A stretch of DNA of 63,319 nt, filler included, from Conidiobolus incongruus B7586 (lineage: Eukaryota): assembly GCA_000697335.1 (NCBI GenBank). It is 12 parts of 12 records of this genome, joined end to end, with 100 filler letters (N's around TTAATTAATTAA, not from the genome) between each part and the next. Parts side by side here need not be neighbours in the genome. Positions count along the whole stretch, not along the records: positions 36,776 to 39,988 come from JNEM01007047.1; 11 more parts are not named here. One strand, given 5' to 3'. The translations under genes were made by a program, and so were the position numbers. The notes under the pieces are model-generated. The model made no database searches. It worked only from the letters and a program-made list of their open reading frames with translations, and was not told the origin of the DNA. Position 1 is the stretch's first letter; every line of letters starts with the position of its first letter. Positions 5,395-59,765 of the stretch are shown here, in pieces.

Positions 5395-8895
<3,501 letters not shown>

Positions 8896-10451: not shown

Positions 10452-10524
10452 TACTATTGACCGGGGTCGAACCGAGGACCTTCCGCGTGTAAAGCAGATG
10501 TAATAACCACTACACAACAACAGT
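10452..10524 (-). tRNA. tRNA-Val (anticodon TAC)
   Basis: 73-nt cloverleaf: acceptor ACTGTTG/CAATAGT, D-loop TAGTGG, anticodon arm TCTGC-TTTACAC-GCGGA, T-loop TTCGACC, discriminator A; T-run downstream. Confidence 0.92.
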
Positions 10525-10728
10525 ATATAGACATTGTCACAGCTCTCAGTCGCATTACTACAGAAATCATGAATGTAACTTATTTTTTTTAAATATATTT
10601 TTCTTGACTACACCATCCCATAATAACTATAATTCTAATTAATATAAATTTTAATTATTGTTATTCATTTAAATTCTCTATAAGTCATACTAATAATTTT
10701 GATAATATAGATTAATTTTAATTTACTC

Positions 10729-12583: not shown

Positions 12584-12607
12584 ATGAGAGATATACTTAA
12601 TAATAGC

Positions 12608-12671
<64 letters not shown>

Positions 12672-16794: not shown

Positions 16795-17108
16795 GATTTA
16801 GTATATTTAGAGCAAATTAGGTTGGAAAGACGGCCGAAAAAGACTTGCACCCAAAACAGTTTAAATATGATGACTGATGAATAAAATACAAATAGTGAAT
16901 GTGGTTTATGAATTGTCCAATCAGCATAGATTTAGTATTAATTTATACAAAGCATTTACTCAGTCAAAATCCAATCCCAAAATCCTAATTCAGTCAAATT
17001 TCAAACTCACAATTCTGATTCTCGTGTTGTAAAATGATTGGAGAATAATTGACAACTACCCATTCACAGGCCCTAGACTAATCCATAATATAATGGTTTC
17101 ACTTAAAT

Positions 17109-17116
17109 TCACGTCA
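17109..17116 (-). promoter_or_regulatory. Candidate bZIP (Hac1/XBP1 UPRE-like) site TGACGTGA upstream of SEC61
   Basis: TCACGTCA on + strand about 315 bp upstream of the SEC61 ATG; several CCAAT boxes lie between it and the gene (about 16917, 16971, 17037). Confidence 0.35.
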
Positions 17117-19996: not shown

Positions 19997-20465
19997 ATTA
20001 ATAGTAAACTATATATTGCTTTTTTAAATAAAAGTATTTCTAATTAGTGTTCTCAATATAATTTGAGAAGACCTATTATTTTGCATGATAATTGCAAAAT
20101 ACACAAATCTAAAGCTGTAAAAAACTTTCTAATTAAAAATAACTGGAAAGAATTACCACATCCAGTATATTCCCTTGATTATAACCCATGTGATTATAAT
20201 TGCTTTGGGCAATTAAAAAACCAGCTTGCAGGAAAGAAAATTTCTGCAGGAAAATTTAATTGGTTTGTGAAACATCAAATTTCAGTCCTTAATAAAAAGA
20301 ACTATTTTTTAGGTGTTAGAAGTTTGCCAAAAGTATGGCAAAAAGTTATTAATAATAAAGGAAACTATTAAATTTATATTATATATTTATTTTTATATAT
20401 CATATATTCAAATGTTTATTTATTTTTAATCGCAAAAAATTCCCATTATTAAAAATGCAGAGTAA
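19997..20465 (+). mobile_element. Mariner (DD34D) transposon, 3' part with terminal inverted repeat
   Basis: ORF 20063-20371: IILHDN...WKELPHPVYSLDYNPCDY, 34 residues between the two Asp; C-terminal LPKVWQKVINNKGNY; end ...TTCCCATTATTAAAAATGCAGAGTAA followed by TA. Confidence 0.88.
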
Positions 20466-22856
20466 TAGTATTTAAACCCATTTTCAGATCAAAATTGATA
20501 AAAGATTTTTTAAACAAAATTATATTATAAAAGATAATTTTCAAGTTTATTGACGCAATAATTCAAATAAAAATAATTGATTTTATCGGTTTAATTCATA
20601 TATTTAATCATCACAATTTACTTCTTGCAATATTGAAGATTAATCAACTTATTTTTTCATAAGATAATATCTTCGATTATCAAGTTGATGATTTTTCAGC
20701 CCCCTCCTAAGAAACAAACAGCTTGTAAGGAATAATATCATTGCTACAGCCTGCCTTCCAAAGGTTAGATGTCAATAATCATATATAACCAAGTTTTAAT
20801 AATTCGAATTAATTTGATCAAGGGTTTGAATCTTATTATTCTATCGTCATTTATCCAAAGTTCCGGTTGTCCAAAACTCACCAGTCATTTTGATTGGTAC
20901 AATGTAATTTTTGGGAATTAGTATGATTTAAGCCACCTTGCAAATAACGCGAATTACACTTTTTATCAAAAATTCACATTACATTTTTTAAATTGAGATT
21001 GGTTGGTTGATTGTCAGTGAATGGATTTTTCCGTTAAAACAGTCTTGAAAATTTTATTTAAAATATCTCTGAGGCTTGGCCATATTGATCAATTATCGAT
21101 TGCTGACGATCTTATATTAATTTAATTTCGTATTATGAAATAAAGTTTATTAGATATTGCCTTATATCTACAAATCGATAACGTGTCTTGATTAAGGGAT
21201 GATTAAAGTAGATTGAGAAATAAATTTAGTTTTTCAAGAAATTGTTGATTTAGTTTTGATCATTTATCTTTAGATTTAATTATATTTAAAGTTTTGAAAT
21301 CAACCACTTATATTAACAAAATAATAACCAGAACTATAAAAATTCCATATTGGTGAGAAATAATCCGAAATTCATCAAAATTTTTCCAGTATTTGTTGAT
21401 TTGAGGAGACATTAGATAAATATAATGGAATGATCTAATATTAGCATTTGATTGAATGGTATTGGTGTCCAAATAGTTTTTAATAATGGATATGATTATT
21501 AAATAATTTTACGTTTTGATCGTTGATACAATCATATATTCACATACTCAAACAATGCATTTCAAATAATATCCATATCCTTAATCATTTTTCAATCCAA
21601 TATATCCGTATTTAATTCAACATAGTGAATTTTACCTTATTAATCCAAATTCTACCACGTTACAAAATCGATACAATCTAAATTTTCAAATTCTATCGAT
21701 ATTGTGATACTATAAACTCTCAACAGATATCTGACCACTTTAAAATTTTAATCATCCAAAATATCAAATCATTCCTTATGTTTTGTCACTTTCTGACTAA
21801 GCACAAAATACTATAGCATAAAAATACTAGTCTATTGATATAGTTTCCACCTTCATTGCTTAAAAAGTGAGTCTATTTGTCACAAATTATATAGATTTAT
21901 TTGATAAATATTTATAATTTGAGAATTGAATCAATTATGGTATAATTAACAAGTACAGCTACATATAGATAATGATCAGTAATAGCACAAGTTTATAGAA
22001 ATCAAGTTTAACAAGACTATTTTGATTAGTTTATTTTAAAATATAATGTCTGTCCAATTGAAGATATTGAATCTATATATCAAACCCAATTATTCATGCT
22101 ACCAAAATAGATTGTACAATTCACTTTTTTATTCAATTATTTTATAATAAATATTGTTGCTATTTTAGATTTTATGAATATTTTCAATATTTGCTAATAT
22201 TTGAAGAATTTAATCTCACATTATGTTGAGAGATAGGATTTATTAACATATATTTAAATATTGAACCCATAATTCCTGCTTTATATTTAATGCTATTATG
22301 GAAAAAGAACTATCTTTATTTGCAATAACTTTGTATATCAATTCAGGTAATCAAACAGATGTATCCCAATGATCTAAATTTAATCATTAATATAATTTTC
22401 TTTACAAAAATATTAATCAATAAAAAATTTTCAAGCATATATTTAATGCTGAAAATAAAATTTGTACTATAAAATAAACTACCATTTTGACTCAATATAT
22501 ATTCACTCATTGCCAAGTATAAAATTTTTCTACATTCTCATTATGTAATATCTTTGGGTTCATGTTAATCGACAATTATTTAATTGCTTCAATTTCTCAA
22601 TTATTTAAACTTTATCTCAATATAGTTATTTGCATTGTTTTTTAATCTATGCTAAGTATGATTACCTTGTCAAACTTTTTTCTCTGAGCTCTTTTGTCAT
22701 TGTAATTATTAACCATATATATAATTATTTACTAACTCTATAATTTACCCAATTTTATTACTATTGTTTGAATTTGATAATTTCAATATTAAATTTAATA
22801 AATTTATCATTTTATAGGTATATTACACTCTGAAACAATATAGTAAATAATATACA

Positions 22857-35178: not shown

Positions 35179-35402
35179 NNNNNNNNNNNNNNNNNNNNNN
35201 NNNNNNNNNNNNNNNNNNNNNNTTAATTAATTAANNNNNNNNNNNNNNNNNNNNNNNNNNNNNNNNNNNNNNNNNNNNTTTTTAATTATCAAAAATTCCT
35301 ATTATTTATATTACAAAGTATTATTATTATTTTAAACTAACTTAATAATTAAAAATATTTAAAATTATTATAAATATAACTTACTAATGATAATTTATAA
35401 TA

Positions 35403-36675
35403 TTACTCTGTATTTTTAATAATGGGAATTTTTTGCAAATTAAAAATAAATGAATATTTTGATATATAATATACAAAAATAAATATATAATATAAATTGA
35501 ATAGTTTTTTTTATTATTAATAACTTTTTACTATATTTTTAATAAAGATCTAATATCTAAAAAATAGTTTTTTTATTAAAAATTGAAATTTGATATTTTA
35601 TAAACCAATTAAATTTTTTTGTAGAAATTTTCTTTCTTATAAACTGGTTTTTTAATTGCCTAAAGCAATTATAATTATATAGGTTATAATCTAAAAAATA
35701 TACTAGATGTGGTAGTTTTTTTAGATTATTTTTAATTAGAAAATATTTTATAGCTTTAGATTTATGAATTTTATAATTATCATGTAAAATAATAAGTTTT
35801 TTCAAATTATATTGAGAACACTAATTAAAAATACTTTTACTTAAAAAAACAATATAAAGTTTACTATTAATTAATTTTCCTTTAAGAACTAAATAAAAAT
35901 AGTATATACTATTATAATTTATTGTAATAATTAACATTCACTTATTAACAAAATATTTATTTAAAGGGATTTATACAAAGGGTTAATTTAGCTTAATCTA
36001 ACATTTTGATTTATATTTTAATAAAGAATTATACATAGGGATTTAAAATTCATTAGTTGTAATTATTCACTATAAAAGTTTAGGTTTCTAGTAATATTTT
36101 AGTAAGTTTAGTTTAACAATAGCTATTATAGCTTTTTTTTAAGCTTTAGTTAAATTATAAGGTACCTATTTTATATTTTTATTTAATAATTTGAGTTTAA
36201 ACTTTAATATATATAAAATACTTATAAAACTAATATTAAAATGCTTAGATAATTTTTTAACTGAAATAAAAAAGTGTTTTATAATATATTTTTTTATTTT
36301 ATTAACAATTGAAAGAGTAATAGTTAAAGTTAATCTTTTAAATTTTAACAGGTCTTAGATAGTTTCTTTTTTAACTTTAAAGTAATTTATCTAGCAATAA
36401 ATTATTAATTTAGATAATACCTTATTATTAAAATCTATTTGTAAATTTTAAATAATTGCAGAGGGGTTATAATTAAGTTTAACTAATACTAAAATAAAAA
36501 ACTTAATGATTATTATTTAGTTTAAATATAATTAAATTACACAACCAATTTTAAAAAGTTAATTTTTTTAATTAAAAAAATTATTATATATATTAGAAAT
36601 ATATAACTTCCTATTAACTTGGTATATATTTATTTATTTAAAATTAATAATAAGTTTGAAAAATCAGAAATTAAA
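35403..36675 (-). mobile_element. Near full-length mariner (DD34D), hypermutated
   Basis: TA plus TIR TTACTCTGTATTTTTAATAATGGGAATT matching the 20465 end; minus strand shows K*VPYNLT (WVPHxL motif), IITTNEF*I (TxDE-W) and IILHDN...PHLVYFLDYNLYNY; about 1.3 kb. Confidence 0.88.
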
Positions 36676-36775: not shown

Positions 36776-37148
36776 GGCGAACGGGGGATGGGGGTATAGA
36801 TTCTCCACCAAATTAACACGTCTTGGGAAAGCCGCGTCCGGAATAGTATAAGTAAAAGAGAGAGATCTAGGGATTTCCAGGTAAAGGTTAGGGAGATAGG
36901 GGGTTTATTGATTTAAGCCAAATAGCTGGGAGGACCCAGATCAAACTCCTTCTCTGTAGTATAGCTCTGTTTCTGGGTTCTATATATAGTGCATAGAGTA
37001 GTAGGTTTCTGGAGTTTTCTGGAGGGTTGTATCATTAGCTGATTAAAGGATAGGGTTGAAGTGGTTGGTCACATGAGGGGGGGAATGACCCTTATATTCA
37101 GTTGAAGTAAGCATATTACGTGGGAGGAGAGTCACCTGACTCGTGACA
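36776..37148 (-). mobile_element. LTR of a second retrotransposon family (other end in gap)
   Basis: GC-rich, CpG-containing; minus strand begins TGTCACGAG, has TATATATAG (about 36985) followed by AATAAA (about 36905). Confidence 0.65.
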
Positions 37149-38065
37149 GTACTATAATGAACTAATATACTCATTCAATAAATTTAAATCACTATAAATT
37201 TGGGGAAAAATGAAATATTTCATTGTTTGATAAATTTGTATCAAAAATTACCTTGATCAATTGAATATTGTATTGAATGTGAAATTATAATATAAGTATA
37301 ATTGAATAAAATAATAACAGAAAGAGTAACCTAACAATATCAAATTTTCCCCTCTTTTATAAATTCCATTATCTCCAATCGTTGCAAATAATTTCGATAT
37401 TTTGATGCAAACTGTGTTCAAAATTCAATGACCAATTAATTGCTTGTTCATTAAATTTTGAGTTAAGATATTTATAAAATATTATACTATATTAAATTTA
37501 GACGAGATAAGCTAATTATTACATATATTATAATTTTTATGGTTATAATTGAATTTAAATATAATTTTTTTTCTTAAAATATTAAATTAAAATTGAATTT
37601 AATTTTTATTTTAGATAGACATTAGCAAAATTAAATTAAAAATTTTATTTAATATAATTTAATATCAGATTAATTAATTAGAAAAATTTCATATATACTT
37701 AAATAAAATAATATGATATTTACCTAAATTACCGATAAAACCATGACTTTGATTACATTCATATTGTATAATTACAATGTTATTAGAAATCAGATTCAGA
37801 TTTGATTATACCCTAACTTATTGTGATCATGAACCTTGGATTTGAATGTTAAAAAATTAAATAGGAATAAATTGCAGTTAGAAAAGTGATTTAAATATCA
37901 GTGAAAAAAAGATAGTAAATTGAACGAGGTTGAGTGTTTTGATGTATGAATAAGTAGAAATATATACTAGATAATTATATGATAGAAAATTAGTGAAAAT
38001 TGAAAAGAATGAAATAATAGGTAATATCATATTCAAAAAAAATTATTACATTATGAATAGTCTAT

Positions 38066-38343
38066 TGTGACAGATTTGACCCCATTTCTCCTAAGATTCA
38101 TAGCATTCTACCAATAGAATCATATGAAATGCATATAACTCTATCTCAATAATGGTACTATTGTATAAATATCATCTTTGGTACAATAAATGAAATAAAT
38201 CTTATACTTGTTCTTAACACATTTGTGTTGATTAGTAATCTGCCTACCAGTGTACAGTATAGTTCTAGTTGTACAGGTTATAGATTGGTGACAACTCCCA
38301 GTAGGTCTTGAATCCAGTGGTAATCTGACTGAAAACTGTAGTA
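38066..38343 (+). mobile_element. Putative solo LTR ending 10 nt upstream of tRNA-Lys
   Basis: Begins TGTGACAG; TATAAATA 38164-38171; AATAAA at 38185 and 38194; ends CTGTAGTA (degenerate inverted terminus); flanks CTAT/TTAC would both derive from CTAC by one C>T each. Last about 40 bp match the sequence upstream of tRNA-Val. Confidence 0.45.
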
Positions 38344-38353
38344 TTACTAACAT

Positions 38354-38426
38354 GCCCGGCTAGCTCAATCGGTAGAGCGTGAGACTCTTAATCTCAAGGT
38401 TGTGGGTTCGACCCCCACGTTGGGTG
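38354..38426 (+). tRNA. tRNA-Lys (anticodon CTT)
   Basis: GCCCGGC TA GCTC AATCGGTA GAGC G TGAGA CTCTTAA TCTCA AGGTT GTGGG TTCGACC CCCAC GTTGGGT G; canonical 73-nt cloverleaf. Confidence 0.97.
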
Positions 38427-39068
38427 TTTGTTCTTTAATTAGATTTTTTTAGTATTTTTATATTCTCTTTTGAAACTCTCAATACATTTAGATTCTCACA
38501 TAAACTATCAATTTTCTACTATTTTTTTATTTTTTCAAGGTCAATAAGTTCTTTTAACTTAATCTATTTTATTATAGTTTTTTCCTTTATTTTAAATTAT
38601 AATACCTTTGTATATATATATATTCATTTCAAAAATTTTAATTAATATCATTAATATAAAAAAGTTTTAATATATGCATTACCTTAGCTTTTTGCTTGAG
38701 ATATATTTGATTTAATATCATAAATAATATATATCAATTAATTTTACAGCTATCTTAATATTTTATTTATTGATAGTTATTATTCAAAATATTATCAATT
38801 ATTATTATTGATTTTAGGTATTTTAAAAATAATTCATAATTGAGAAATAAAAAAAATTTAAAATTAGAATAATAAATACTTTGTATATTAGTTTAAATTT
38901 ATATAATTCTGGTATAGCAAGATATAATATAAAACTAATATATCTATTTTCTATAAAAATATTAAATTAATCAAATCACTTATATATAACTATTATGAAA
39001 TAAATAGTTATAGGTTTTAATTTTTCAAAAGTATTTATTATTGTTAAATTTGATTATTTTTTATATTA

Positions 39069-39490
39069 TTAGTATGGGAATTAAAAAATGGCAAATTTTT
39101 TAATTTCTGATTTTTTAAATATATTATATATTATAAAAAATTATTTATATTTAAAATATATAGAAAAATAAATATTCTCAAACTATATATACTCGATTTT
39201 AACTATTTCTTATTAAAATATTTTGATTTTAAAATTTATATCTATATTTAATTATACTTAAATCAGATAGTAATTATCAAAAGGCTTTTATTTTTATATT
39301 TTTAAAACTTAACTATAAATTTTTTAAAGTTATCTAAAACTTATAAATAGTTTATAAAGATGGTGTTTTATTTAAAACTACCATATATCACTAAATTTAT
39401 AATTTTAAAGTTAGAAAAAATATTATTTAAAATTTATTAAAATCTAAAAAATTAATTTCTATTATTATTCATTTATTTATTAATAAAATA
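39069..39490 (+). mobile_element. Mariner 5' fragment (TIR plus HTH region), hypermutated
   Basis: TA plus TTAGTATGGGAATTAAAAAATGGCAAATTTT; colinear with the reverse complement of 36300-36675; reads VLFKTTIYH*IYNFKVRKNII*NLLKSKKL (degenerate W..F..G....D..SGRP). Confidence 0.65.
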
Positions 39491-39498
39491 ATTTAATA

Positions 39499-39988
39499 TT
39501 AGTGCAGAAATTAAGTAATGGCACAATTTTAAAATTAAAATTAAACAAATAAATTAATAAATAATATATAAAAATTAATGAATAATATAAAATTAATAGC
39601 CTCTTTTATTATTAATAACTTTTTTCTATACCTTTAGTAAGCTTCTAATACCTAAAAAATAGTTCTTTTTATTAAGGACTGAAATTTAATGTTTCACAAA
39701 CCAATTTAATTTGTTTGCAGGAATTTTTTTTCCTGCAAGCTGTTTTTTTAATTGTTTAAAACAATTATAATCACATAGATTATAATCAAGTGAATATACT
39801 GGATGTGGTAACTCCCTCTAATTTTTTTTATATAAAAAATCTTTTACAGCTTTAGCTTTATGTATTTTATAATTATCATACAAAATAATAGGTGTCTTTA
39901 ATTTATATTGAGAACACCATTTAGAAATTGTTTTATTTAAAAAAGTAATATATAACTTACTATTAATTGATTTTCCTTGAGGTATTAA
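39499..39988 (-). mobile_element. Mariner 3' part with TIR (rest in gap)
   Basis: TA plus TTAGTGCAGAAATTAAGTAATGGCACAATTTT; minus strand PIILYDNYKIH...*RELPHPVYSLDYNLCDY, homologous to 20063-20371. Confidence 0.85.
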
Positions 39989-40088: not shown

Positions 40089-40561
40089 CCTCTACGTTCG
40101 GGACGAACGAAGGTAAAACAGAGGTATTGATGGGAATAATCCTGTCAATTACTCAAGAAACTCCGATTACCGCAGGATTCGAGAAGTCACATTGGAGATA
40201 TCACACCCCATGAACTAATTGATCCTATTACTTTCTGCCTGTAAGTTGTTCATGTCCACAAAAATCAACAATGGAACCTAATATAAGATTATCACAAGCA
40301 AACTAATAAACACATCTTCTATCTTCATTTTCAAAAGTATACCGTCTCTAAGTTTTTCTCGTAGCCCTCACAAAAGTGTTGAGTCGTGACGAGCGTGAGA
40401 TATTTACTTTATTCAAAGAACCCGATTCGTAACAAGTCATTTTCACCTACTTTGGTGAACCCCAATAATTTCCCTTAATTACGTGGTAATTTATCGTTTA
40501 CCACTGGCGATTCCCCGTTTAAGCTCGTAAAGCCCATTGTTGTCAGTGTTAACACCCGACA
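40089..40561 (-). mobile_element. Probable LTR of a third family (other end in gap)
   Basis: CpG-rich island ending abruptly in ...CACCCGACA (minus strand starts TGTCGGGTG) against AT-rich DNA; no ORF. Confidence 0.5.
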
Positions 40562-43248
40562 TAATATTAAAAGTAAATCAATTGGTTGGGTATTATAATT
40601 CCTTAGTTTACCAAATTCATTTATTTAATCTTCTTAAATATTAGTCGAGTTAAGTATCTTTAATAATTTAATATAACTCATAATTTATTTTTCTATTTTA
40701 AATTATATTAAATTTATACTTATTATATTTAATATGAAAACCCTTTATTTCATTAAGCTTAATGGTATTAATAATATATATAAATCCTTTATATTTTAAT
40801 TTAAAAATATATAATTTAAAATTATTGATTTATTGGTAATTCAATTACCAAAAAAACAAGTAATATTATTCTAATATTATTGAAATATTAAAACAAAGGA
40901 TACTCAGCCAATTTTGGATAAAATATTTGGAGAGAAATAAATATTTTCTAGATTAACTTGATAAATTTTTTAAATTTACAACGTTTTATTAGTGTATGAA
41001 ATCAAATATTATTATAAATATTGTTTCTTTAAATTGAGCATAATAAACATTATTCTATATACTATCTTAATTTAATCTATTTAATCAAATTTATTTTTTA
41101 TAGTAAAACCTTTAATATTGATTATTAATATTATTATTATGTACTTTAATATTGATATCTATTACATCAAAGCATCAGTGTAGATTTTACGCTATGTTAT
41201 GAATCACTATCAATCAGTAGAATATAACAACAGTTCAAATATTAAGATTAAAGTTAAATATTATACCAATGGTATATTGATTTTGTAATACTACATATTC
41301 AGAAAGCAATGAAAAAGCAAATTGCAATTAATTATTTCTAGAAAACTCATTTAATAACCAATTTATACAATAAAAGTTTACAACAAATTTTATTCAATAG
41401 ATAATTTAGAAATTGGCAAAACAAAAATCAATGTAAAGTAATATTTATGCTTCGGATTTACAGCTATATAAATCTCATACTTAGTTTATCTATTTGAAAC
41501 AAGGATATTTTTATATCTCTTGGATAATGTTATTATTTCCAATTCCTTGATTCACACTTTCACAATATTATATTAAAGAAATTTGTTATAAACTTATATC
41601 TAATTTCAATATTTTAAATTTGTGAATTATAAATTTAGTTTTTTTAAAGCTTCGGACATTTCATTTATTAATATTATGGTTGAGTTATATCAAATTATCA
41701 CTAGATTTAATATTATATTTTATATTTTTAATAAATGATCATTAAATCAATTTAATAATGATAAGGAAAATTATTTTATTGACTTAATATAAACACTCAA
41801 TGCTAAAAGTTTTTTCTAATTTTATAACCAAACTGTTGGATAATATTGTTGAATAATTGTAATATTAATTAAAGATAACAACTTTTATTTAAATTTACAT
41901 TTAGTCGAGTCATGTAATTATTAAAAATCAAATAGTCAAAGTCATTGATTTCCTTAATCATAATATAATATCAATATTTCAATCTTATTAAAGCATATTA
42001 ATATTTTGAATTATTAGAAATATTGTGGCAATACTCTGTTATCCGCACCATAGATTAGTGTATTTGTGATGTCTAAATCAGTATCCTTACACAAAATCTA
42101 ATGGTTACCTCAATTCTCTACCAATTAATGTTGCGTTTTATAATAAGATGGTTGATTGTAACTTATTTATTAATAATTTTATTTAAACAGTTCACTCAGT
42201 GAATTATATCCTTTAATTATGGACTTAGCCGCTAAAATGAGAGATAACATGAACTTAACTATCGAATCAAGACGGACGGGTATTTTCAAATTACAGCAAT
42301 ATATTTGATAATTATTGAATCAACTTGTCTATTAATCAAATTTGATGTTCAACAAAGAACATTGTAAAAATTTTCTATTCTTGACTTGAGTATTATAGAA
42401 AGATATAATGTAAATTACAGGGAAAAATGATTATAGGTTTGAAATATATGATAATCATTTTAATTATTACAATTATTATTTTATTTTTTTAATTATGATA
42501 CTAATCAAATTCTTATTTATATATTATTATTATTTATTATATATTCTAGTTTATAGTAATTTAATAATAACTATTAATAGGTATCTAATTAAATCAAACC
42601 TATAAATCTTTGAATATTTATTATTATTTTATCATTTTTAAACCAAATATATTAGTAATATTTTAATTTTAAAACTATTAATAAAATTTAAAATTATTTA
42701 AATTAGAAAAATATTACGATAGTATTTGAAATATGAGAAATTATTTAATTCCTGATTTTTTAAATATAATATTAGTNNNNNNNNNNNNNNNNNNNNNNNN
42801 NNNNNNNNNNNNNNNNNNNNTTAATTAATTAANNNNNNNNNNNNNNNNNNNNNNNNNNNNNNNNNNNNNNNNNNNNTTATATATTAATAATCTTTGATTT
42901 TAATCTTTTAATAATATAAAAGATATATCAATTTATAATCAATATTTATTGATATTTTTAGTATTATAATTTTTAGTTATAATATATTAACTATATTATA
43001 TAGTCAATAAAATAAATTTTCTAATATTTATATTCTCTAAGAATAAATATTTAATTTAATCTTATTATTTATAATTTGATATTCAAATTAGAAATTTTTA
43101 TTTAGCTAAAATTTTATTTTTATTAGATATTTAATAAGATATAATATTTACTAAGTTAAATTTCAAATTAATTATATAATTAGATTTATAATTATATATT
43201 TAAAGCTTTGATATTTTATATCAACTTATGGTTTTTTTAGTAAAGTTT

Positions 43249-43647
43249 TGTAAGTGTAGTGGTAGTTAAACTAATATAGTATAGAGGAAAACTTAATATA
43301 AAAGTAGTGTGGCACAAAATGTAGTAATATAATGTGGCTGTAGTGTGCAAATGTAAACAAAGTTTAATTAAGCTTCAAACTAGGATGAGTCACTAATATA
43401 TTAAGATTTATATTAGGTAGTACTAATATCCTATAATATTAATAGAATATAGTCTCAATTTTAGAAATAGTATAAAAGTAAAAAATAGTAAGAATTAAAA
43501 GGAAAAAGAAGAACCTAATTTATTAGATAATTTAATACTATTTATACAATTAATTTAACTATATAAGTATAAATTAATCATATAATTTATAGTTAATTGG
43601 ATTATATAAAAGTATATATAAGAATTTAAAGAACTAGTCTCTTAACA
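43249..43647 (-). repeat. 3' LTR (399 bp) of the Gypsy element
   Basis: TG...CA termini; aligns end to end with 48568-48964 and, inverted, with 61550-61949. Confidence 0.95.
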
Positions 43648-46600
43648 CTCCCCTAATAGGTTTTTTAAAAGAGACACACTCCCTAATTTTTTACAAATAG
43701 GTATAATAGGTTAAAGTATTCTTAATATTTTCTAGAGGTTCTTATATAGCTTCTTTAATTAAATAACCCATCTATTTTACATAAAAATAAAATTTATTCC
43801 TAATAGATTTAGACTTAATTATGTAATTAACATAGTATTCTTCTTCTCCATCTTAATTAATAATTAAATCTAGTTTTGGGGTTTTTAATCAATTAGGAAA
43901 AGTGTTAAAATCTTCAAAGTATGGTTTAATTTTAGATATGTGAAAGGTAAAGTTGATCCTCAAAGTTAAAAATAATTCCAAGGTAATATTTTTAAAATTT
44001 AAATCAATAGATTAAATTTTATAAGGATTATAATATAATGGTAAGTATTTGGGATTTAAGCTAAATTTAAATAGGGTAAGTTTAAGGGCAGATTGTTCTA
44101 AGTATACAAACATATTAGTTTTATATTTAAGAGGGTTTCTAGATAACTTTAAGTATTGTTGTTCTATAATCCTTTAATTTTCTTCTAAGTTAAATTTAAC
44201 AAGGGAATTAATATGTTTGATATTAGATTAAAATTCAACAATATTTAAAAGTAAGTTAATTTAAAGTTTTAGAGTAATTATTAAGTTAAGATGTTTATTA
44301 TAATTAATGAAATAAAAGCTAAAACCTGTTGATTTATTAATAAAGGTGTTGAATAAATATTAGAGTTAGTAGATATAAACATCCTAATTTAATTGATTAG
44401 TGTTAATATAAGCTCTAATCATTTGCTTTAAGGTTTTAATAGTTTTTTCAGCAAGTTTATTAATTTAGTGATAATTAGTAGTAGATATAGCTAGGTTAAT
44501 TTTAAAGGAAAAGGATAGTGACTTTTAGAATTAAAAGTTGAATTATACATCTCTATCAAATATAATAGTTTGTGGAATTTTATAGTGGGTAAAGATATTA
44601 AAGAATAATAATTGTGTAATATCTTTAGCTGTAGAAGTTTTGAAATAAAAAATAAAATAAGTATATTTAGAAAATGAATCAATTATAATTAGTAAATTAT
44701 TATAACTATTTGTTGATTTAAGGATTTCTATAAAATCAAGTTAGATTTATTGTTAAGTTTCATTAAAAACTTATAAGGGAATAAGTTTACTATATTTTAG
44801 TTGAGTATTATATTTAGTTCTTTAGTGTATATTATAGGTATTAGTGTATTTCTAAACTAATTTAATTAGGGAAAGCTAATAGTATTTTATTTTAATTTTC
44901 TTAGTAGTTTTTAACTAGTTTTAATATCTTTTAATAGGTAAATTATAACATTCATTAAATATTGTTTATTAAATCTTAAGAATGTTAAGAATATATAGAC
45001 AATTATTATAGTATAGTAAGTTATTGATAATTTTAAATTTTTTAACATATTTTAATTAGTTTTCTAATAGTTTAAAGAGTTTTTCTTTAACTAAAATAAA
45101 GAAATTATTATTTAACAGTGTTTTTTAAAGTAGTTTAATAAATTTTTTATTTCCTTCATTAATAATTATTAAGTTAATATTTGCTAGATTTTTACAATTA
45201 GAATAATAGGGTAAGTATGTAAAATTTCTTAATAAAGTATCTACAATATAGTTTTATTAACCTAAAAGATATTAAATAAAGAAAAGGTAAGCTTAGATAG
45301 TTTTAATCTATTTAACTTATTTTCTTAATAAATACTTTTGAGTATTTAAGTAGATGAGTGATTTATAATCTATAAGTGTTAAGAAAAAGTTGCAAGATAA
45401 GAAATGTAAGTGATTTTTGATTATTTCTACTAAAGCAAGAAGTTTTTATTTATAGACTAGGTATTTTAATTCAGCTGGTTTTATTTTTCTTAACTAGAAT
45501 GTTATTAGTTTTAAAGTAACATTTATAAAGTTAAATTCAACTTATTCTCCTTTATTTATTATTTTATCTTATAGTTATAAGGTAAAATATAAATTAAATT
45601 CAAACTAGGTTAATTATCTATTAATTGTAAAAAAATTAAAGTTAATAAAAATAATAGTAGGTAGTTTTAGATTAAAGATAAATAAAGCAAAAGCATTAGT
45701 AACATAGAAAATCAAAGTATTTATGTAGAAAGTGTGTAGTGGGGTTTATTTAAACAGAGAGTTTTTCTTTAAGAAATTAATAAAAAGAGTAACAAGTTTA
45801 ATAAAAGAATCAATAAAATCTTTAAAGTAATTTAATAATTTAAGTATAAATATAAGTTAATCTTTGTTTATAGGTATAGTAAAAGCTTTAATACTATTGA
45901 GTTTAGTTAGATTAATACTAATTCCTTAAAAAGAAACAATATAACTATAGAAAAAGATAGAAGAGGTACTAAAGATACATTTTAATAGTTTTAAAGGTAA
46001 TTTATATTCTTGAATAATTTGTAAAATTTAATTAATATGTTAGATATATTCTTCTTTAGTTTTTGAATAGATTAAGATATTATTAAAGTAGGTGATAATA
46101 AAGTTATTAAAAACAAGGTTAAAAAGGGAATTAATGAATTAAATAAAAGTTGTAAAGGTATTACACAATTTAAAGTTTATAACAGTAAATTTATAGTAGC
46201 TTAAAAGAGTATTGAAAATAATTAAAGGGATAGAATTTTTTTCAACTTTAATGTTGTAATACCTATTCTTAACATCTAGTTTAGTAAATATAATTGATCT
46301 AAGTAGTTTATCCTTAACATCATGTAGGTTTAATAATAAAGTTTTATCCTTGATAGTTTTAGAGTTTAAAACACAATTATCAATATATAATCTTTAACCA
46401 CTATTAGTTTTTTATATAAAGAAGATTAGAGATTTTTATAGTGAGGAAAAAAGTTTAATATACCTATTTTCAAGTAGTTTTTGGATTTCTTCTTTTAAAG
46501 TTTAATATTATTCAAGAAATAAATAGTAAGTAAGTTTTAAGTATAGTTATATATTAGGGATTAGTTTAATTTTGTGTTTAATATTATATTTAGGTGGTAA

Positions 46601-48567
46601 TTTATTTACAAGTTTAAAAACATTAGCAAATTAACTTATTATATTGTATAAGAAGTGGTTATTAGATATAACTTCATTGAAATCAACAGATAAAGTGTTA
46701 ATAGATAAGTAATAAACAAATATATATCTTTATAAATTATTTAAGTTTTTGATTAGCTTTTTACATTGATTTTTACTTATAATGATAAAATTATTTACTA
46801 CAATTATAGAGTTAGTGTTAGGTAAAGTATTTAATAGTTTTATAGTAGGGTAATGTAGATTTTTTAAGATTAATTCTATTAATTTCTTTTAGAATATGAA
46901 AAAAATAGATTTGTAACCTTTTAAGGTAATATTCATAGATATAAAACTATGATATTTAAATTAATTTTAACCTAGTATAAAATTATAACTAATGTTACCA
47001 ACTAGGAATTTAATATATTAGGAGTAGTTAGGGGGTAATGATAGGTATTTAAATATAGTACCAGATGCTTGTTTTATTAAGTTATTAGCATATTTAATTA
47101 TTAAGTTGCTTTTTTAAATAGGTAAAGATAGTTTTAAAACAATAAAAAAAGAGATAATATAACTAAAACAACTAGAGTTAATTAAAACACTAACAGGTAT
47201 ATCTATAAAATAATTAATTAACACAAACAATAAAGTGATAGTTAAAGGTAAAAAATTACAAGGTAAATTAATTACTAGAATGTTTTTAGTTTCTAATGGT
47301 TTAATTAGTTAGATTTCTCTAGTATATATAGTTTAATTTGTAGAATCATTAGTTTATTAGAACTTTTGTGGATTAAATTAGAATCTGCTAACTAATTGTA
47401 AAAGGAGTGATTTTAAGGTTATATTAATATTATTCAAGTTTGATTTATGGTTGGTAAGTTAAGATTATTGAAAATTAAACAGATGTTGCTTCTTTAAAGG
47501 GTATTTGTTAGCTTTATAGTTAACTTAAGTTCTTCAACAGTAATAACAACCTTTATTTGTTTTTAAGTAGGCTTTAACTTTTTTATTAAAGGTTTTCTTA
47601 TAAAGCTTTAAAGTAGAAACATTTATCATTTGAAATTTAGGTGGGTTAAAGTAAAGTTGAAAAGATTAATTTTTAAGGTTGGAAAATTTAATTATAAAGT
47701 AAAAAATATTATTAATTATAATTACTATATTACAAATGTTAAAAAAAAACATATTATTAAAGTGTTCTTTATTAACTAACTAAAACTTCACTTAAAAGTT
47801 AAGGTATTGTAATAGTTTGTAGATTTATTTTTCTTTAGTGATATTTAATATGTTTAAACATATCTCATTAAATTTCTCAATCAATTATCTTGTAGAAGTT
47901 TTTTATTTAAGCTAGGAAAACTTTTCTCTTGTTAATTAAACTTAATCTTTTAAGTAATACCTCTCTTTAAAAACTTTTTCTAATTGTTTAAAAGTTTATA
48001 TCTTTGTAATAAGTTATCCTCTTGAAGATTCTTTAGGATTAAACTTGTAATAAATTAACTACCAAATATAAACAAATTTTTCTAAAAAAAAGTAGCTAAT
48101 TTAAAGATATTCTTTAAATCTTCATCAAGAATCAAATTAAAATAATTCTTTATGTTTTTAAGGTAGTTTTCAAGTTTGTAAAGGTTTTTAAAATTATCAT
48201 AAGTAGTTAATTTGTTTTTAAAGATATTAAAGAAGTAGTTTAATATATTAACTATAATAAAATAGCTGGTTTGTTAGATTTAAGCTCTTTAAAACATGTT
48301 TTTTTCAATTAAAAGTTGTTTAATATATGTTTCTTAAAGGGTAATAAACTTTTAAAAACTAAAGTTTTAGATTTACTTAGTAATTAAGCTATTATTATTA
48401 TTATTAAAATAATATAAGGGTATCTCTTTTTTTAGTGGTATTATAGTATATAGTATTAAATTAAAATAAAATAAATTATAGATAAGATTTAAAATAGTAA
48501 TAATTAAATTTAATACAAATAGTTATTAATTTCTAGTAGGTTTTTAATGGTTTTATTACTGTTACTA

Positions 48568-48964
48568 TATAAGTATAGTGGTAGTTAAACTAATATAGTA
48601 TAGAGGAAAACTTAATATAAAAGTAGTGTGGTGTAAAATGTAATAATATAATATAGCTATAGTATGCAAATGTAAAGAAAGTTTAATTAAGCTTCAAACT
48701 AGGATAAGTTATTAATATATTAAGATTTATATTAGGTAGTGTTAATATCCTATAATATTAATAGAATATAGTCTCAATTTTAGAAATAGTGTAAAAGTAA
48801 AAAATAGTAAGAATTGAGAAGAAAAAAAAACCTAGTTTATTAAATAATTTAATACTATTTATACAATTAATTTAATTATATAAGTATAAATTAATTATAT
48901 AATTTATAGTTAATTGGATTATATGAAAGTGTATATAAGAATTTAAAGAACTAGTCTCTTAACA
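48568..48964 (-). repeat. 5' LTR of the Gypsy element
   Basis: Aligns with 43249-43647; the + strand terminal TG is mutated to TA. Confidence 0.93.
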
Positions 48965-50203: not shown

Positions 50204-51205
50204 TCAATGATTTTCAATTTTGATATATTCACAATCTTCTTCAGGTAATTTTACATTAAAATACTTTAAAAAGCACTCTTTTCTGTGTTCAAAATCTTTA
50301 GTGACTATAGTTTCGCTACCTTCTGCTGTATATGTTTTGATAGTTCCGTTGAGATACATGATGTACCCTTTAGGAGTATTGATTGCCATAAAATTGAGTT
50401 TGTAGAATACATTTTGTGGATCTGATAATATTTGATTGTTCATGATTTCAACATCAGAAATATAAACGGGTTTGGGTTGGAAGTAATGTAAAGGACACCA
50501 TTCATTTCTGGCATTGAGCTTTTTACCAGGGATGGGAGAGTGTCTTACTTCAAGGACATACGGATCGTATTTGCTGGATTGTGTTTGTTCAATAACTTCG
50601 GGATAAGGTCTTTGAACAATGCGATGTTGGGTCAAGTTTGAAGATTCTTGTACCAAATCCAATTGGAGTTTAATGGGAGTGGCAGTGGAACCGAGATGTA
50701 AGCCAAGATCGAGTATGTATTCCTCACCCTCAAGATTAATTAAGATAAAAGCGTGGTTAAGAGGAGCCACATGGATAGTTCTATTCTCTTGCCATAATCC
50801 ATAATCAACTCCACGTCCGCCCAATAAATAGCATTCGAATCCCAGACATCTGAGAATCCAATAAGCTAAAACATTATTTTCAAAGCAGCAGCCATCTCTC
50901 TCTTCTTCAATGACCTTAGTGAACATATCCTGATGATTGATACTCACGCCCTGAGTGGTGAGCTTGTCGAAGGGATGTGTGGGAGTATTACCCTTGGGTT
51001 GAGTGAGCTTATGATAGTAATGGAAACTCAAATTACCGAAAGGGATTGAGCGAGTATGGCATTCAGCGATGCTTTTCAAGGTATCATAAGTGGGCTTTGG
51101 TAATTCATTAACATTAGCACCAGTTGACTCAAAAAAGTTGATTCTTTTCAAATATTTAATCAACTGATCGTAAGAATAGATCTCGCAAGGGATTGTATTA
51201 ACCAT
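50204..51205 (-). CDS. NAT: Arylamine N-acetyltransferase, intronless, about 333 aa
   Basis: YLKRI, HTRSIPFGNL (IPFENL motif), ERDGCCFENN (catalytic Cys), PLNHAFILI (His), YILDLG (Asp), LKYFNVKL C-terminus. ATG at 51205; the ORF track starts one codon earlier at GTG. Confidence 0.92.
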   Translation of the reverse strand: MVNTIPCEIYSYDQLIKYLKRINFFESTGANVNELPKPTYDTLKSIAECHTRSIPFGNLSFHYYHKLTQPKGNTPTHPFDKLTTQGVSINHQDMFTKVIEEERDGCCFENNVLAYWILRCLGFECYLLGGRGVDYGLWQENRTIHVAPLNHAFILINLEGEEYILDLGLHLGSTATPIKLQLDLVQESSNLTQHRIVQRPYPEVIEQTQSSKYDPYVLEVRHSPIPGKKLNARNEWCPLHYFQPKPVYISDVEIMNNQILSDPQNVFYKLNFMAINTPKGYIMYLNGTIKTYTAEGSETIVTKDFEHRKECFLKYFNVKLPEEDCEYIKIENH

Positions 51206-54200
51206 CACGATTACAAATAAAAGTTTATTCTTTGACCATGACTCGAATCCATCACTTTTATATTACTCAAAATCCCAATTTAATATAATCGGTTTCATCA
51301 TCCATAGCACCCAATTTGCAAAAGATAATTATACAAACACTTGTGATTGGTCAGTTGGCTAAATCTTTTAATATAATTTTTGTGTAACATCCGAACCTGA
51401 GAAATTTAGATAAAAAAAGGGGGTTTTCATATTACTAAAATTGTTAAGTGTCAAATAATAATATTATTTAATAAAATTGAATAAATTTATAATATTCTTT
51501 TTTTTTTTGAAAAATTTCTAAAATTTAATTACTATCCGAATCTTATGATTTAAATATTTATTATAATTATTATTATATTTCAGCTTATATTAATTTTAAT
51601 TTATAAATAATTTTGTAATATATAATATTAATAGAAATCTATTTTATTTTAATTTTTTATTAATAATATATTTATTTATACATATTAACAATGATTAGAT
51701 TAAATAATTTAGATATTTTAATTGGTTTACAATTTGCCTATACCTTTAATCAAAATTTAAGTGAATTTTGAAAACTAAATTGAATATTTCGCTATATATA
51801 TCTAAATCAATTTTTTATCCAATTATTATTTACTCATTACCACCTCATTTTGCATTATATTAACATATCCATATATGATAAGAAATCAATTTTATTTTGT
51901 TAAATTAGGATTATTTTATTGGATAACTCTTAATTCTATAAAGTAGCTTTAGCTTTTTATTTTCAAGTTCTCGGACCAAATACTTTAAAATAAATTAATT
52001 TATCAAAATGATTTTTCCTATAAGGTATTAAATATTTTTTTAAATAATTATAATTTAGAAATAATAAAAATTAAAACCTAATTAACATAGTTAATTGATT
52101 AAATATGTATTACATTTTTATTTAATATTAAACATTATTATATTATATATTATTATTATTATTCGGATTAATATCTATTTTAAGTAATTAAAATTATTGA
52201 ATATTCAAATTTTTATAATATTATTGTAGTTATGAATATTCGTGATTTCCGATGCTTAATAGTAATGTATAATGCGAAAAGGAATATTATCATTGTGTGA
52301 TTTATTTTCGTTTCAATCAAATATAAGTATAATATTAATATGATGTTGAACTATTTATCAATAAGTAGCAACTTTTGTGTATACTTTTAAATGAATTGTA
52401 ATACTTAAAGTTTAAGAAATTTCACTATGTTTCTTTTTTTGAAGTGAATTTAATATTATCATTGTTTTTAAAACTTGCTTAAAATATTATATTATAGTAT
52501 AATTATCATACAGATTCAATTAACTATGGTATTAGCTAAGTAAATTTAAAAATTTTTTTATAAGATTATTGGTTATTTCTTTAATTTATTACATTTTATA
52601 ATAATTAAAATATATTTTGATCAATTAAGTTTTTAGTTGATTATATATTTTATAAATAAATTATAAAGGTATCAAATTATTAAATAATTATAAAAATGAC
52701 AATATTATAACCATTATTAATATCATTATGTTAATATATTTTCTATTTTATTCATCAATATTAATAATAAAAGATAAATATTCAATATTGTTATATATAT
52801 GGTTCAAGATTTTAATTTATTTTCAATAAATAAATAAATAAAATATTAATTAATTAGTTCTGATAATCCATGTTTAATCAATATAAAAATTTAAAAATTT
52901 AATTTTTCTTTATATTTACCAATAAATATTAATATTTGAGATATATATATGAGTAAAATAAATTCTCATGATATTGTTAAATTTAAATATTTCACTATAT
53001 ATCCTTTATTATTGTTTTTCCAATATAATTCAATTTATTCTTCTGCTATTTCAAAAAATAATATAATTACTAATATTTGATTTTGAAATTAAAAATATTT
53101 GATATAATTGAAGAAGTAAGATTTAATGAAACTTTATTGATAAAGCTGTTAATATAAATAATCAGCATTTTTTACAATATTTTCAATTGTAAAATTATAA
53201 ATACTTGTTAGACATGAATTTATACTAATTAAACATATTATTAGCATTAACCTTAATTAATGAGTAATTAAAATTTAGGAAATAATCAACTCAAAATAAT
53301 AATAATAATAATAATAATAATATATACTAAATCAAATTTAATTAATGAAATTTCGGAGGTAATTGAGTGATTTTAAGCATTTAATATTCAAAATTAAAAA
53401 TATTTTTTCAATATAATACAAGATATCAATTGCCATTGGAGACATTTAATATCATTTTAAATATAAATAATAAAATATTCGAAGCATTAATTCAGTATTA
53501 TTGTTTATATCAATTGATAGTGAAGAATTTGGTGTTAGTTTTTAATTTGCTTAAAATAGCAAGTGAAAATTATATTTCATCTATTAAATTTTAATGAAAT
53601 AAAGAAAATATTATCTCTAATTAAAATTATTCAATTAATTTTTGATAGCACTATTTGCGTTATATTGATAAAAATCAATAAATTTTAAATGCGAATAATC
53701 AAATAATAAATGTTTCTAAATTAAAGAGATATGTTATTGTAGAATCTAGGAATCACATTTGCCTTATAGAATTCGCAAATTATGGTATGTTTCACCTTAT
53801 TAATCAATAAGTTGGTGAAGTTATCATAAAACGTTATTATTGAAATTATGTTGATTAAATTAATATTTGAAACTATTATTTGATATAAATGGTAATTTTA
53901 CAACTTTTAAAATTATTTATCTCATAAATTTTAAATTTATCAATTTTAATCAAAGGTGAATTTGAAAAATTTATGCATAAGGATATACTTATATGTAATA
54001 ACTCATTGGGTACATGTTTTGAATCAATTTGGTAAATATTTGAAAATTCTTATATTAATCGGATTTTTATTTTCAAACTTCTTAAAGAAAATTTTATTAA
54101 CAGATTCCATGATAATTTTAAAAGAGTATTCGATTTAAAATTAAAATTAATATGTTTTATTAGTCATCTAGAAACTAATCACTTCTTTCTATTAATAGTT

Positions 54201-55691: not shown

Positions 55692-56154
55692 TTAAAGTTG
55701 GCCACTGCTGAGCACATTACCACCATCTGCTAGGACCTTGACAGATTCATCTTGTACAACTTTGCCATCCATACCAGTGATTCGAATGTTAGCTGGATTA
55801 GTTGCTCCATTAATAATCCAAATGTTATTGTTGTTTCTAGAAGCTGGTTTCCATTGTCCATTGACATTGATTTCAATACTCTTAATAGCTTGAGCTGAGT
55901 TTAAGATTTGTAAACCAGCCCACCATTCGTTACTTCCAGCTTGCCAGCGATATTGGAGATTTCCATTAATGTTAGGACATCTGACTTGCTTCCAAGTGAT
56001 AGGGACATTTCCTGATGCAGGATCACCAATTAATTGGAAAGCATTGGCATTGATATTAAGATCACTTGCTCCACATCCACTACAAATATCAGCTACATTG
56101 ACAATGACTGATTTGTTGTTATCAGTGTTAGTGACTTCGAGACAAGCTCCACAC
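55692..56154 (-). CDS. Expansin-like protein (EXLX: DPBB plus CBM63), 3' part; 5' end in gap
   Basis: CGACLEV...VNVADICSGC...NAFQLIGDPASGNVPITWKQVRCP...YRWQAGSNEWWAGLQILN...NGQWK...IRITGMDGKVVQD...SGQL-TAA(55692-55694); colinear with BsEXLX1 motifs. Confidence 0.9.
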
Positions 56155-56254
56155 NNNNNNNNNNNNNNNNNNNNNNNNNNNNNNNNNNNNNNNNNNNNTT
56201 AATTAATTAANNNNNNNNNNNNNNNNNNNNNNNNNNNNNNNNNNNNNNNNNNNN

Positions 56255-59551: not shown

Positions 59552-59765
59552 TATTATAATATATTAAAATATTTTAAATAATAATTAAAAAATCCATTGA
59601 ATAATATAAGTTAAATAAATTTATTATTATTTTCTAGTAAGATAATATCTCTTGTTATATTATAGNNNNNNNNNNNNNNNNNNNNNNNNNNNNNNNNNNN
59701 NNNNNNNNNTTAATTAATTAANNNNNNNNNNNNNNNNNNNNNNNNNNNNNNNNNNNNNNNNNNNN

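What the first reader, a model, noticed from the sequence alone, without database searches (positions are those of the whole stretch)
38306..38353. Same 34-bp element at exactly -48..-15 upstream of two unrelated tRNA genes
Seen: upstream of tRNA-Lys (38306-38339, +) is TCTTGAATCCAGTGGTAATCTGACTGAAAACTGT; upstream of tRNA-Val (10539-10572, -) is TCATGATTTCTGTAGTAATGCGACTGAGAGCTGT. They match at 25/34 positions, ungapped, in the same orientation and register relative to the mature 5' end, and include many G/C positions in very AT-rich DNA. Both continue to an LTR-like end (CTGTGACA / CTGTAGTA) 10 nt before the tRNA. At Lys it closes a 278-bp unit starting TGTGACAG with TATA then AATAAA and a possible 4-bp TSD; at Val only about 40 bp are present. 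Known: Ty3 integrates at Pol III start sites via TFIIIB, and Dictyostelium DGLT-A/TRE5 insert at set distances upstream of tRNA genes. Inference: a tRNA-targeting LTR element in this lineage, or an unrecognised non-TATA Pol III upstream element in the TFIIIB footprint, possibly derived from an LTR.
Basis: partly seen in the sequence, partly recalled or inferred. Interest (0 to 1): 0.85.

Follow-up and report, generated by a model that had tools for sequence, protein, structure and literature searches.

The report
Retrotransposon ends parked before tRNA genes
The shared 34 bases are the end of a dispersed repeat of about 310 bases, most likely the terminal repeat (LTR) of a jumping gene, that sits about ten bases in front of two unrelated tRNA genes in an early-diverging fungus, which likely means the element aimed at tRNA start sites as yeast Ty3 does.

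Summary
In detail: 25 of 34 positions match, both at -48..-15. Only 17 of 93,248 random window pairs do as well. Contigs of the same organism laid on the Lys locus show what it is. 38066-38343 is one decayed copy of a dispersed repeat with sharp ends; up to 28 contigs differ from it at a site, and the listed pieces are 81-84% alike. The family's last 19 bases match the Val upstream piece at 18 of 19, but the Lys copy at only 11 of 19. So the motif is the 3' end of an LTR-like repeat, not a tRNA promoter element: 3-4 other tRNA-Lys contigs lack it. One further contig joins a repeat copy to a tRNA-Lys-like start. Best reading: solo LTRs of a retrotransposon with Ty3-like preference for Pol III start sites, in an Entomophthoromycotina-like fungus. 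Against strict targeting: three other copies run 300-3,900 bases past their 3' end without the break a multicopy tRNA would cause. No target-site duplication, coding part or genome-wide count could be established. A new instance of a known behaviour in a lineage where my searches found no report.

The parts
38066..38343 (+). Solo-LTR-like copy of a dispersed repeat (278 nt here; about 310 nt in copies that keep the ~35 nt missing at 38189-38194); starts TG, own 3' end decayed
   Evidence: Summed contig depth rises from 46 in the left flank to about 1,000-4,400 inside (run X4), edges at about 38065 and 38340, flanks single-copy; up to 28 contigs with another letter at one site. GC 0.33 against 0.22 and 0.16 in the flanks. 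No CpG left.
38164..38171 (+). TATA box (TATAAATA), U3-like
   Evidence: Only TATAAA in the unit, none on the minus strand; none of the 40 listed differences falls inside it, 96 rows not shown (table 3).
38194..38199 (+). AATAAA shared with other copies, likely polyadenylation signal; with the TATA box it suggests U3-R-U5 runs towards the tRNA
   Evidence: other copies resume alignment at 38194 after ~35 extra letters. Function inferred.
38306..38339 (+).
38344..38353 (+). 10-nt spacer between repeat end and mature tRNA (13 nt if the decayed end is read as a 3-nt deletion); likely holds the Pol III start site
   Evidence: start site inferred from yeast data (PMC6673722, passages)
38354..38426 (+). 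tRNA-Lys(CTT) gene, no encoded CCA, T-runs downstream; multicopy in this genome
   Evidence: Rfam 64 bits, ARAGORN
10535..10572 (-). 38-nt remnant of the same repeat's 3' end, intact CA terminus, -48..-11 of tRNA-Val; the rest of the repeat is absent
   Evidence: 25 of 34 to the Lys copy; last 19 nt match the family tail at 18 of 19 (hand count, against table 7)
10525..10534 (-). 10-nt spacer between repeat end and mature tRNA-Val
10452..10524 (-). tRNA-Val(TAC) gene, weaker than Lys (two non-standard pairs marked), followed by a T-run; possibly decaying
   Evidence: Rfam 40.6 bits

Best explanation
The 34-mer is the 3' end of a dispersed repeat of about 310 bases, most likely the LTR of a retrotransposon, and its position about 10 bases in front of unrelated tRNA genes likely records integration aimed at the Pol III start site. 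Shown: the repeat is multicopy with sharp TG...CA ends and a TATA box ahead of AATAAA; two window copies end in the same register before different tRNA genes; a third contig joins a copy to a tRNA-Lys-like start. Inferred: (1) an autonomous element, probably Ty3/gypsy, was tethered by its integrase to TFIIIB/TFIIIC on tRNA genes and inserted at the start site; (2) LTR-LTR recombination left solo LTRs; (3) the Lys copy then decayed (no CpG left, ~35-nt deletion, mutated end) and the Val copy lost all but its tRNA-proximal 38 nt, perhaps because a divergent gene begins about 200 nt away; (4) copies without a tRNA at this end are in the other orientation, lost their tRNA, or show that the preference is loose.
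For: Repeat nature and edges: tables 2, 3, 7, 8. Val piece is family sequence: 18 of 19 to the tail shared by 7-9 contigs per run (table 7, hand count). Same register at two unrelated tRNAs. Third junction: one contig joining 38311 to 38352 in 2 of 4 runs (table 5); the window locus itself is covered by a separate contig with 0 differences (table 8, records 15 and 22), so this is another locus. Chance that both window tRNAs carry a repeat end: 6e-11 to 2e-6 for assumed 30-300 copies, 40-80 Mb and a 10-100-nt window (assumptions mine). The distance lies inside the published range: Ty3 0-20 bp, C. albicans beta 6-30 bp, DGLT-A 13-33 bp from the mature 5' end (PMC7175516, PMC5911963). Ty3/gypsy elements occur in this window (RT, RNase H, integrase order at 43228-48964, weak Pfam hits below cut-off).
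Against: Three other copies run on unbroken for about 300-400, 900 and 3,900 nt past the repeat's 3' part (table 8, records 11/18/25, 13/20/27, 12/19/26), whereas the Lys contig breaks 27 nt into its multicopy tRNA; loose ends behind 38324 have medians of 158-255 nt in 7-9 contigs, so at least half of those are not followed by a multicopy tRNA. None of the 7 joints changes strand, so no opposite-orientation copy at a tRNA-Lys was seen to explain this. No TSD at Lys, while another LTR family in the window keeps 5-bp TSDs (5 of 5 and 4 of 5). No PBS, polypurine tract or coding part is linked to the repeat. The letters between the two sides of the third junction are unknown, so its exact distance is unknown. 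All four runs are one sample, possibly the window's source.
Confidence: 0.72

Rival explanations
1. The LTR family inserted without aiming at tRNA genes; the few copies that landed at tRNA start sites were kept, and trimmed to the TFIIIB footprint, because they improve Pol III initiation (co-option).
For: At least half of the copies with a readable 3' flank show no multicopy tRNA (tables 7, 8). The Val remnant is exactly the -48..-11 stretch and is close to the family (18 of 19). Ty1 and Ty3 insertions can modestly raise expression of neighbouring tRNA genes (PMC7175516, passage). Summed depth peaks in the 3' part, 38270-38309 (table 2; depth is no copy number).
Against: Random insertion puts an end at a given tRNA with probability about 1e-5 to 1e-3; selection cannot keep what did not land, and two copies share one register. 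At Lys this stretch is the least conserved part (11 of 19).
Confidence: 0.1
2. The repeat is a small non-autonomous DNA transposon (MITE-like), or another non-LTR-retrotransposon unit, with a preference for tRNA start sites.
For: No internal retrotransposon part was found; ends are short imperfect inverted repeats (7 of 8); Tc1/mariner-like DDE remnants exist in the window.
Against: TG...CA ends, about 310 nt, one TATA box followed by AATAAA on one strand only fit an LTR; only 8 nt of inverted repeat; no TA duplication.
Confidence: 0.09
3. A lineage-specific upstream promoter element of tRNA genes that merely resembles, or was captured by, a repeat.
For: Fixed position in both window tRNAs, within the region TFIIIB would cover (position recalled from yeast work).
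Against: 3-4 other tRNA-Lys contigs per run carry unrelated AT-rich upstream DNA (table 7); the motif is the physical end of a ~310-nt dispersed unit; 0 of 3 tRNA genes in 80 other eukaryotic loci show it (best 13-17 of 34; tiny, distant sample).
Confidence: 0.04
4. LTR and tRNA move together as one unit (Helenus-like element, or retro-copied LTR-tRNA chimera).
For: A related fungus has 1,294 predicted tRNA genes in 44 Mb (PMC12387763, passage), so some process amplifies tRNA genes in this group; tRNA-Lys is highly multicopy here.
Against: Two unrelated tRNAs; the tRNA lies outside the CA end, not inside an LTR as in Helenus (PMC10886601); DNA after the Lys tRNA is single-copy; no encoded CCA.
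Confidence: 0.03
5. Chance match of two AT-rich upstream regions.
For: Free local alignment is not significant (286 of 500 nulls).
Against: 17 of 93,248 in register; 18 of 19 to an independently derived family tail.
Confidence: 0.01

Closest known systems
Ty3 (sigma LTR) of Saccharomyces cerevisiae, Ty3/gypsy
   Same: [quoted passage not shown]
   Different: Nearly all Ty3 insertions are at Pol III genes and carry 5-bp TSDs; here at least half of the readable 3' flanks show no multicopy tRNA and no TSD was established. No integrase is known, so the TBP/Brf1 contact is untested. Host is Zoopagomycota-like, not Ascomycota.
beta LTR / Tca8 of Candida albicans
   Same: [quoted passage not shown]
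   Different: Different phylum; sequence relation not tested.
DGLT-A of Dictyostelium discoideum
   Same: Inactive family with many solo LTRs at tRNA genes; 18 of 20 copies 13-18 bp upstream (PMC6101501, PMC5006619; passages).
   Different: DGLT-A inserts in either orientation and uses Tfc4; here 3 of 3 seen junctions face U5 towards the tRNA (too few to call a bias) and the distance is 10 (or 13) nt.
Tj1 of Schizosaccharomyces japonicus; Tyl3, Tyl6, Ylt1 of Yarrowia lipolytica
   Same: Fungal Ty3/gypsy elements 1-10 bp upstream of the tRNA start site (PMC5911963, passage).
   Different: All ascomycetes; for Tj1 targeting was shown by a transposition assay, here only by genomic position.
Helenus (TRIM with tRNA-like sequence in the LTR)
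   Same: LTR sequence and tRNA sequence side by side in fungi (PMC10886601, abstract and first half of Results).
   Different: Here the tRNA lies outside the LTR end, differs between loci and is followed by unique DNA.

Membership tests
Solo LTR of an LTR retrotransposon | Dispersed multicopy unit of a few hundred bases with sharp ends | tested here: met
   tables 2, 3, 7: depth step at both edges, up to 28 contigs differing at a site, pieces 81-84% alike.
Solo LTR of an LTR retrotransposon | TG...CA termini with short inverted repeat | tested here: met
   TG at 38066; CA end in the family tail (table 7) and at Val; 7 of 8 inverted. The Lys copy's own 3' end is decayed.
Solo LTR of an LTR retrotransposon | TATA box upstream of a polyadenylation signal on one strand | tested here: met
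   TATAAA at 38164, AATAAA at 38194, none on the minus strand of this copy; sequence match only.
Solo LTR of an LTR retrotransposon | 4-6 bp target-site duplication | tested here: inconclusive
   no perfect duplication with TG..CA-register ends; 3 of 4 if the end carries a 3-nt deletion; the Val copy is truncated.
Solo LTR of an LTR retrotransposon | Same repeat found as a pair around PBS, gag-pol and PPT | not testable with these tools
   No genome held; one copy and one fragment in the window; no exact motif hit in viral or metagenome contigs.
Ty3/gypsy (Metaviridae) | pol order RT, RNase H, integrase and RT phylogeny | not testable with these tools
   No internal part linked to this LTR. 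The gypsy-type element at 43228-48964 has a different LTR.
Pol III start-site-targeting LTR elements (Ty3, Tj1, beta/Tca8, DGLT-A) | Ends within about 30 nt upstream of several different tRNA genes | tested here: met
   10 nt at Val, 10 (or 13) nt at Lys, third junction of unknown exact distance.
Pol III start-site-targeting LTR elements (Ty3, Tj1, beta/Tca8, DGLT-A) | Most copies of the family lie at Pol III genes | tested here: inconclusive
   Contig lengths (tables 7, 8) say at least half of readable 3' flanks lack a multicopy tRNA; the other end of those copies and single-copy tRNAs were not seen.
Pol III start-site-targeting LTR elements (Ty3, Tj1, beta/Tca8, DGLT-A) | Integrase binds TFIIIB or TFIIIC | not testable with these tools
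   No integrase sequence available.
Upstream Pol III promoter element | Present at most tRNA genes without flanking repeat | tested here: not met
   3-4 tRNA-Lys contigs per run lack it (table 7); it is part of a ~310-nt repeat.
Helenus (TRIMp3) | tRNA-like sequence inside the LTR | tested here: not met
   tRNA starts 10 nt beyond the repeat end; no Rfam match inside the unit at E up to 1.
TRE5-type non-LTR elements | L1-like element 40-54 bp upstream, opposite orientation | tested here: not met
   Distance 10 nt, LTR-like ends; TRE5 values from PMC5911963.

The most novel reading that the evidence does not exclude
An Entomophthoromycotina retrotransposon lineage evolved Pol III start-site targeting independently of yeast Ty3 and amoebal DGLT-A, inserts with its U5 end towards the gene, and its last ~38 bases are kept after the rest is deleted because they have been co-opted as the TFIIIB landing sequence of those tRNA genes, in a genome group with very many tRNA genes.
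Probability: 0.08. Interest if true: 0.75.

Novelty: new member of a known kind. Interest (0 to 1): 0.42.

Why it matters
Published LTR elements that aim at tRNA start sites come from ascomycete yeasts and dictyostelid amoebae, and are explained as a safe-harbour strategy in compact genomes (PMC5911963, PMC5006619). A case in an Entomophthoromycotina-like fungus would extend the habit to an early-diverging fungal phylum, in a repeat-rich, AT-rich genome, and bears on whether fungal tRNA targeting is old and repeatedly lost or repeatedly invented. It would also offer a new integrase-TFIIIB/TFIIIC pair to compare with Ty3 (TBP/Brf1) and DGLT-A (Tfc4). The mechanism class itself is known, and unchecked notes from this scan report similar cases in other early-diverging fungi, so the value is mostly as one more point of a comparative series.

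Tried and rejected
No whole genome is held, so no genome-wide tRNA or repeat survey. No RNA holder listed. Exact scans with a 23-nt terminal motif: 0 hits in viral contigs and 0 in metagenome contigs. Search for an orthologous locus through Sec61: 80 loci kept of 545, best identity 76%, none close; these hold 3 tRNA calls with full upstream DNA, none with the motif, and no blastn hit of the unit at E up to 0.1. Exact look-up of 3 window proteins: 0 of 3 found; the N-acetyltransferase search gave no hit among 942 candidates. Third match at 40204-40162 (-), 22 of 34 to the Lys copy: rejected as probably chance (9 of 300 shuffles and 74 of 500 Markov nulls reach its score; it shares the Lys-specific letter at 38308, not the family's; no RNA family follows it). 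LTR-like pieces at 36800-37150 and 40089-40580 are not alignable to the unit. Pfam scan of 40 of the 71 frames of 55 aa or more beyond 19997 found no retrotransposon domain beside either tRNA. PBS reading (LTR followed by antisense tRNA 3' end) rejected: the tRNAs are full genes in sense orientation. Joint duplication of LTR plus tRNA rejected: different isotypes, unrelated bodies and flanks. Scan notes: nothing for this genome, for look-alike sequence or for this fungal group.

Full report
Setting. The window is 63,319 nt, GC 0.12-0.31 in 2-kb bins, broken by 11 paired N linkers, so it may be separate contigs; the two tRNA genes lie on different pieces. The Sec61-alpha exon finds as best named relatives Massospora cicadina (78%), Entomophthora muscae (77%) and Neoconidiobolus thromboides (77%), plus an unnamed protein at 97%. 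The host is therefore most likely an Entomophthoromycotina fungus other than these species (inference from similarity; no tree built). No whole genome is held.

Observation. ARAGORN and Rfam find 2 tRNA genes: Lys(CTT) 38354-38426 (+, 64 bits) and Val(TAC) 10524-10452 (-, 40.6 bits). The two 34-mers match at 25 of 34, both at -48..-15, and each is the other's best hit in the window. In register, 0 of 100,000 shuffles reach 24, and 17 of 93,248 random real segment pairs reach 25; a free local alignment is not significant (286 of 500 nulls). The match is real, and its weight comes from the register and from the family evidence below.

What it is. Four runs of one sample hold 82-89% of the sampled words of window 8000-17900; they may be the window's source and are not independent of it. 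Their contigs were laid on 37950-38520 at 80% likeness. In run X4 summed depth is 46 to the left of 38050, about 1,000-4,400 over 38070-38329, and 21-24 after the tRNA; the other 3 runs show the same steps. Up to 28 contigs show another letter at one site. The listed long pieces differ from this copy at 21-24 of 111-145 positions (81-84% alike); copies under 80% are invisible. Several copies have about 35 more letters at 38189-38194, so the full unit is about 310 nt. Seven to nine contigs per run leave the Lys copy at 38324 with one shared tail ending in CA and then diverge; three more leave at 38339 with GACA. By hand count the 19-nt tail matches the Val upstream DNA at 18 of 19 and the Lys copy at 11 of 19. 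The Val piece is thus a 38-nt terminal fragment of the family, and the 34-mer is the family's 3' end.

Why LTR. The unit starts TG and ends CA with 7 of 8 inverted bases, has one TATAAA (38164) and a family-shared AATAAA (38194) on the plus strand only, is richer in GC than its flanks (0.33 against 0.22 and 0.16) and has no CpG left, like the dead gypsy-type element in the window and unlike two exons (ratio 0.55). There is no purine tract before it and no primer site after it in either orientation, and the left flank is single-copy, so it reads as a solo LTR. A TSD is not established. No coding part is linked to it, so 'Ty3/gypsy' is inferred from the kinds of element known to target this site, not tested.

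Association with tRNA genes. Both window tRNAs carry the end in one register: 10 nt from the mature 5' end at Val, 10 nt at Lys (13 nt if the decayed end is a 3-nt deletion). One more contig, seen in 2 of 4 runs, joins 38311 to 38352 with unknown letters between and 28 letters on the shorter side (table 5); since the window locus has its own identical contig, this is another repeat-tRNA junction. Under random insertion the chance that both window tRNAs have an end nearby is 6e-11 to 2e-6 with my assumed copy numbers and genome sizes. Yeast tRNAs start about 10-13 nt upstream of the mature end (PMC6673722), so the repeat end would sit at or near the start site.

Results against strict targeting. 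A multicopy tRNA breaks a contig: those of the Lys locus end at 38380-38381. Three other copies run unbroken for about 300-400, 900 and 3,900 nt past their 3' part (table 8; 32 of 670 rows shown), and the loose ends behind 38324 have medians of 158-255 nt, against about 57 expected if a multicopy tRNA followed (table 7; 24 of 197 rows shown). So at least half of the copies with a readable 3' flank have no multicopy tRNA there. This fits insertion in both orientations, as for Ty3 and DGLT-A, but 0 of 7 joints change strand, so no reverse copy at a tRNA-Lys was seen; it also fits a loose preference, or tRNA loss since insertion. The flanks of individual copies were not read, and the fraction of copies at Pol III genes is open.

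Promoter reading. Three to four contigs per run reach tRNA-Lys from unrelated AT-rich DNA (table 7), the motif is the end of a 310-nt unit that also occurs away from tRNAs, and at Lys it is the most decayed part. A general upstream promoter element is therefore unlikely. Co-option of the terminal 38 nt at some genes is not excluded: the Val remnant covers just -48..-11 and is close to the family. A plain deletion favoured by the divergent reading frame whose ATG is at 10729 explains it as well.

Mechanism. Shown: repeat family, LTR-like ends and signals, position at two (probably three) tRNA genes. Inferred: integrase tethering to TFIIIB/TFIIIC, insertion at the start site, solo-LTR formation, later decay and truncation. 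Confidence 0.72.

Comparison with print. I read passages found by term search in PMC5911963, PMC5006619, PMC11105155, PMC6101501, PMC7175516, PMC6673722 and PMC12387763, and the abstract and first half of the Results of PMC10886601; no supplements were opened, and repeat tables there could bear on novelty. The 2018 review lists start-site-targeting LTR elements only from Ascomycota and Dictyostelium, and expects more among fungi. The passages seen from the Entomophthora and Conidiobolus genome papers do not mention tRNA targeting; the latter counts 1,294 tRNA genes in 44 Mb. Seven searches listed no report of tRNA-targeting LTR elements in Zoopagomycota; the library lacks most subscription papers, and Repbase was not searchable. 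Unchecked notes of this scan describe similar cases in Basidiobolus, Dimargaris and other early-diverging fungi; they are leads, not support, and they make this case less singular.

Verdict. Real feature; the end of an LTR-like repeat, likely from an element with Ty3-like preference for Pol III start sites; new member of a known kind in a lineage without a published case in my searches. Interest 0.42.

Noticed in passing
window 43228-48964 (-): Dead full-length LTR retrotransposon: 420-nt LTRs 91% alike, weak RT, RNase H and integrase hits in gypsy order, 5-bp TSD with one mismatch, GC 0.19 and no CpG; a solo LTR of the same family at about 61550-61949 has a perfect 5-bp TSD. No tRNA beside either.
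   Followed up: partly
window 36776-37148 (-): 5' end of another LTR element 1.2 kb upstream of tRNA-Lys: TG start, TATA and AATAAA, end in AA rather than CA, followed by a TGG primer-site-like stretch; cut by an N linker; not alignable to the finding's unit.
   Followed up: partly
window 40089-40562 (-): GC-richer, CpG-retaining segment beginning TG, possibly a ~185-nt LTR plus leader; holds the 22 of 34 match to the Lys 34-mer; no Rfam match.
   Followed up: partly
window 38354-38426: Summed contig depth over tRNA-Lys is several hundred times the single-copy flank, in line with very high tRNA gene numbers reported for a related fungus; how these genes are amplified is unexplained.
   Followed up: no
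window 10452-10524 (-): tRNA-Val(TAC) begins with A, has two non-standard pairs and scores 40.6 bits; it may be a decaying copy.
   Followed up: no
window 19997-20471, 35325-35882, 39421-39978: Three copies of a ~480-560-nt repeat with weak DDE_3 transposase hits (Tc1/mariner-like remnant), each next to an N linker.
   Followed up: no
window 55692-56198, 59718-60167, 62840-63319: Three near-identical pieces of a Barwin/DPBB (expansin-like) gene at contig ends; recent duplication or redundant assembly.
   Followed up: no
window 50204-51262 (-): Intronless N-acetyltransferase (PF00797, E 1e-30) with no relative at E up to 0.001 among 942 candidates of the word-seeded search.
   Followed up: partly
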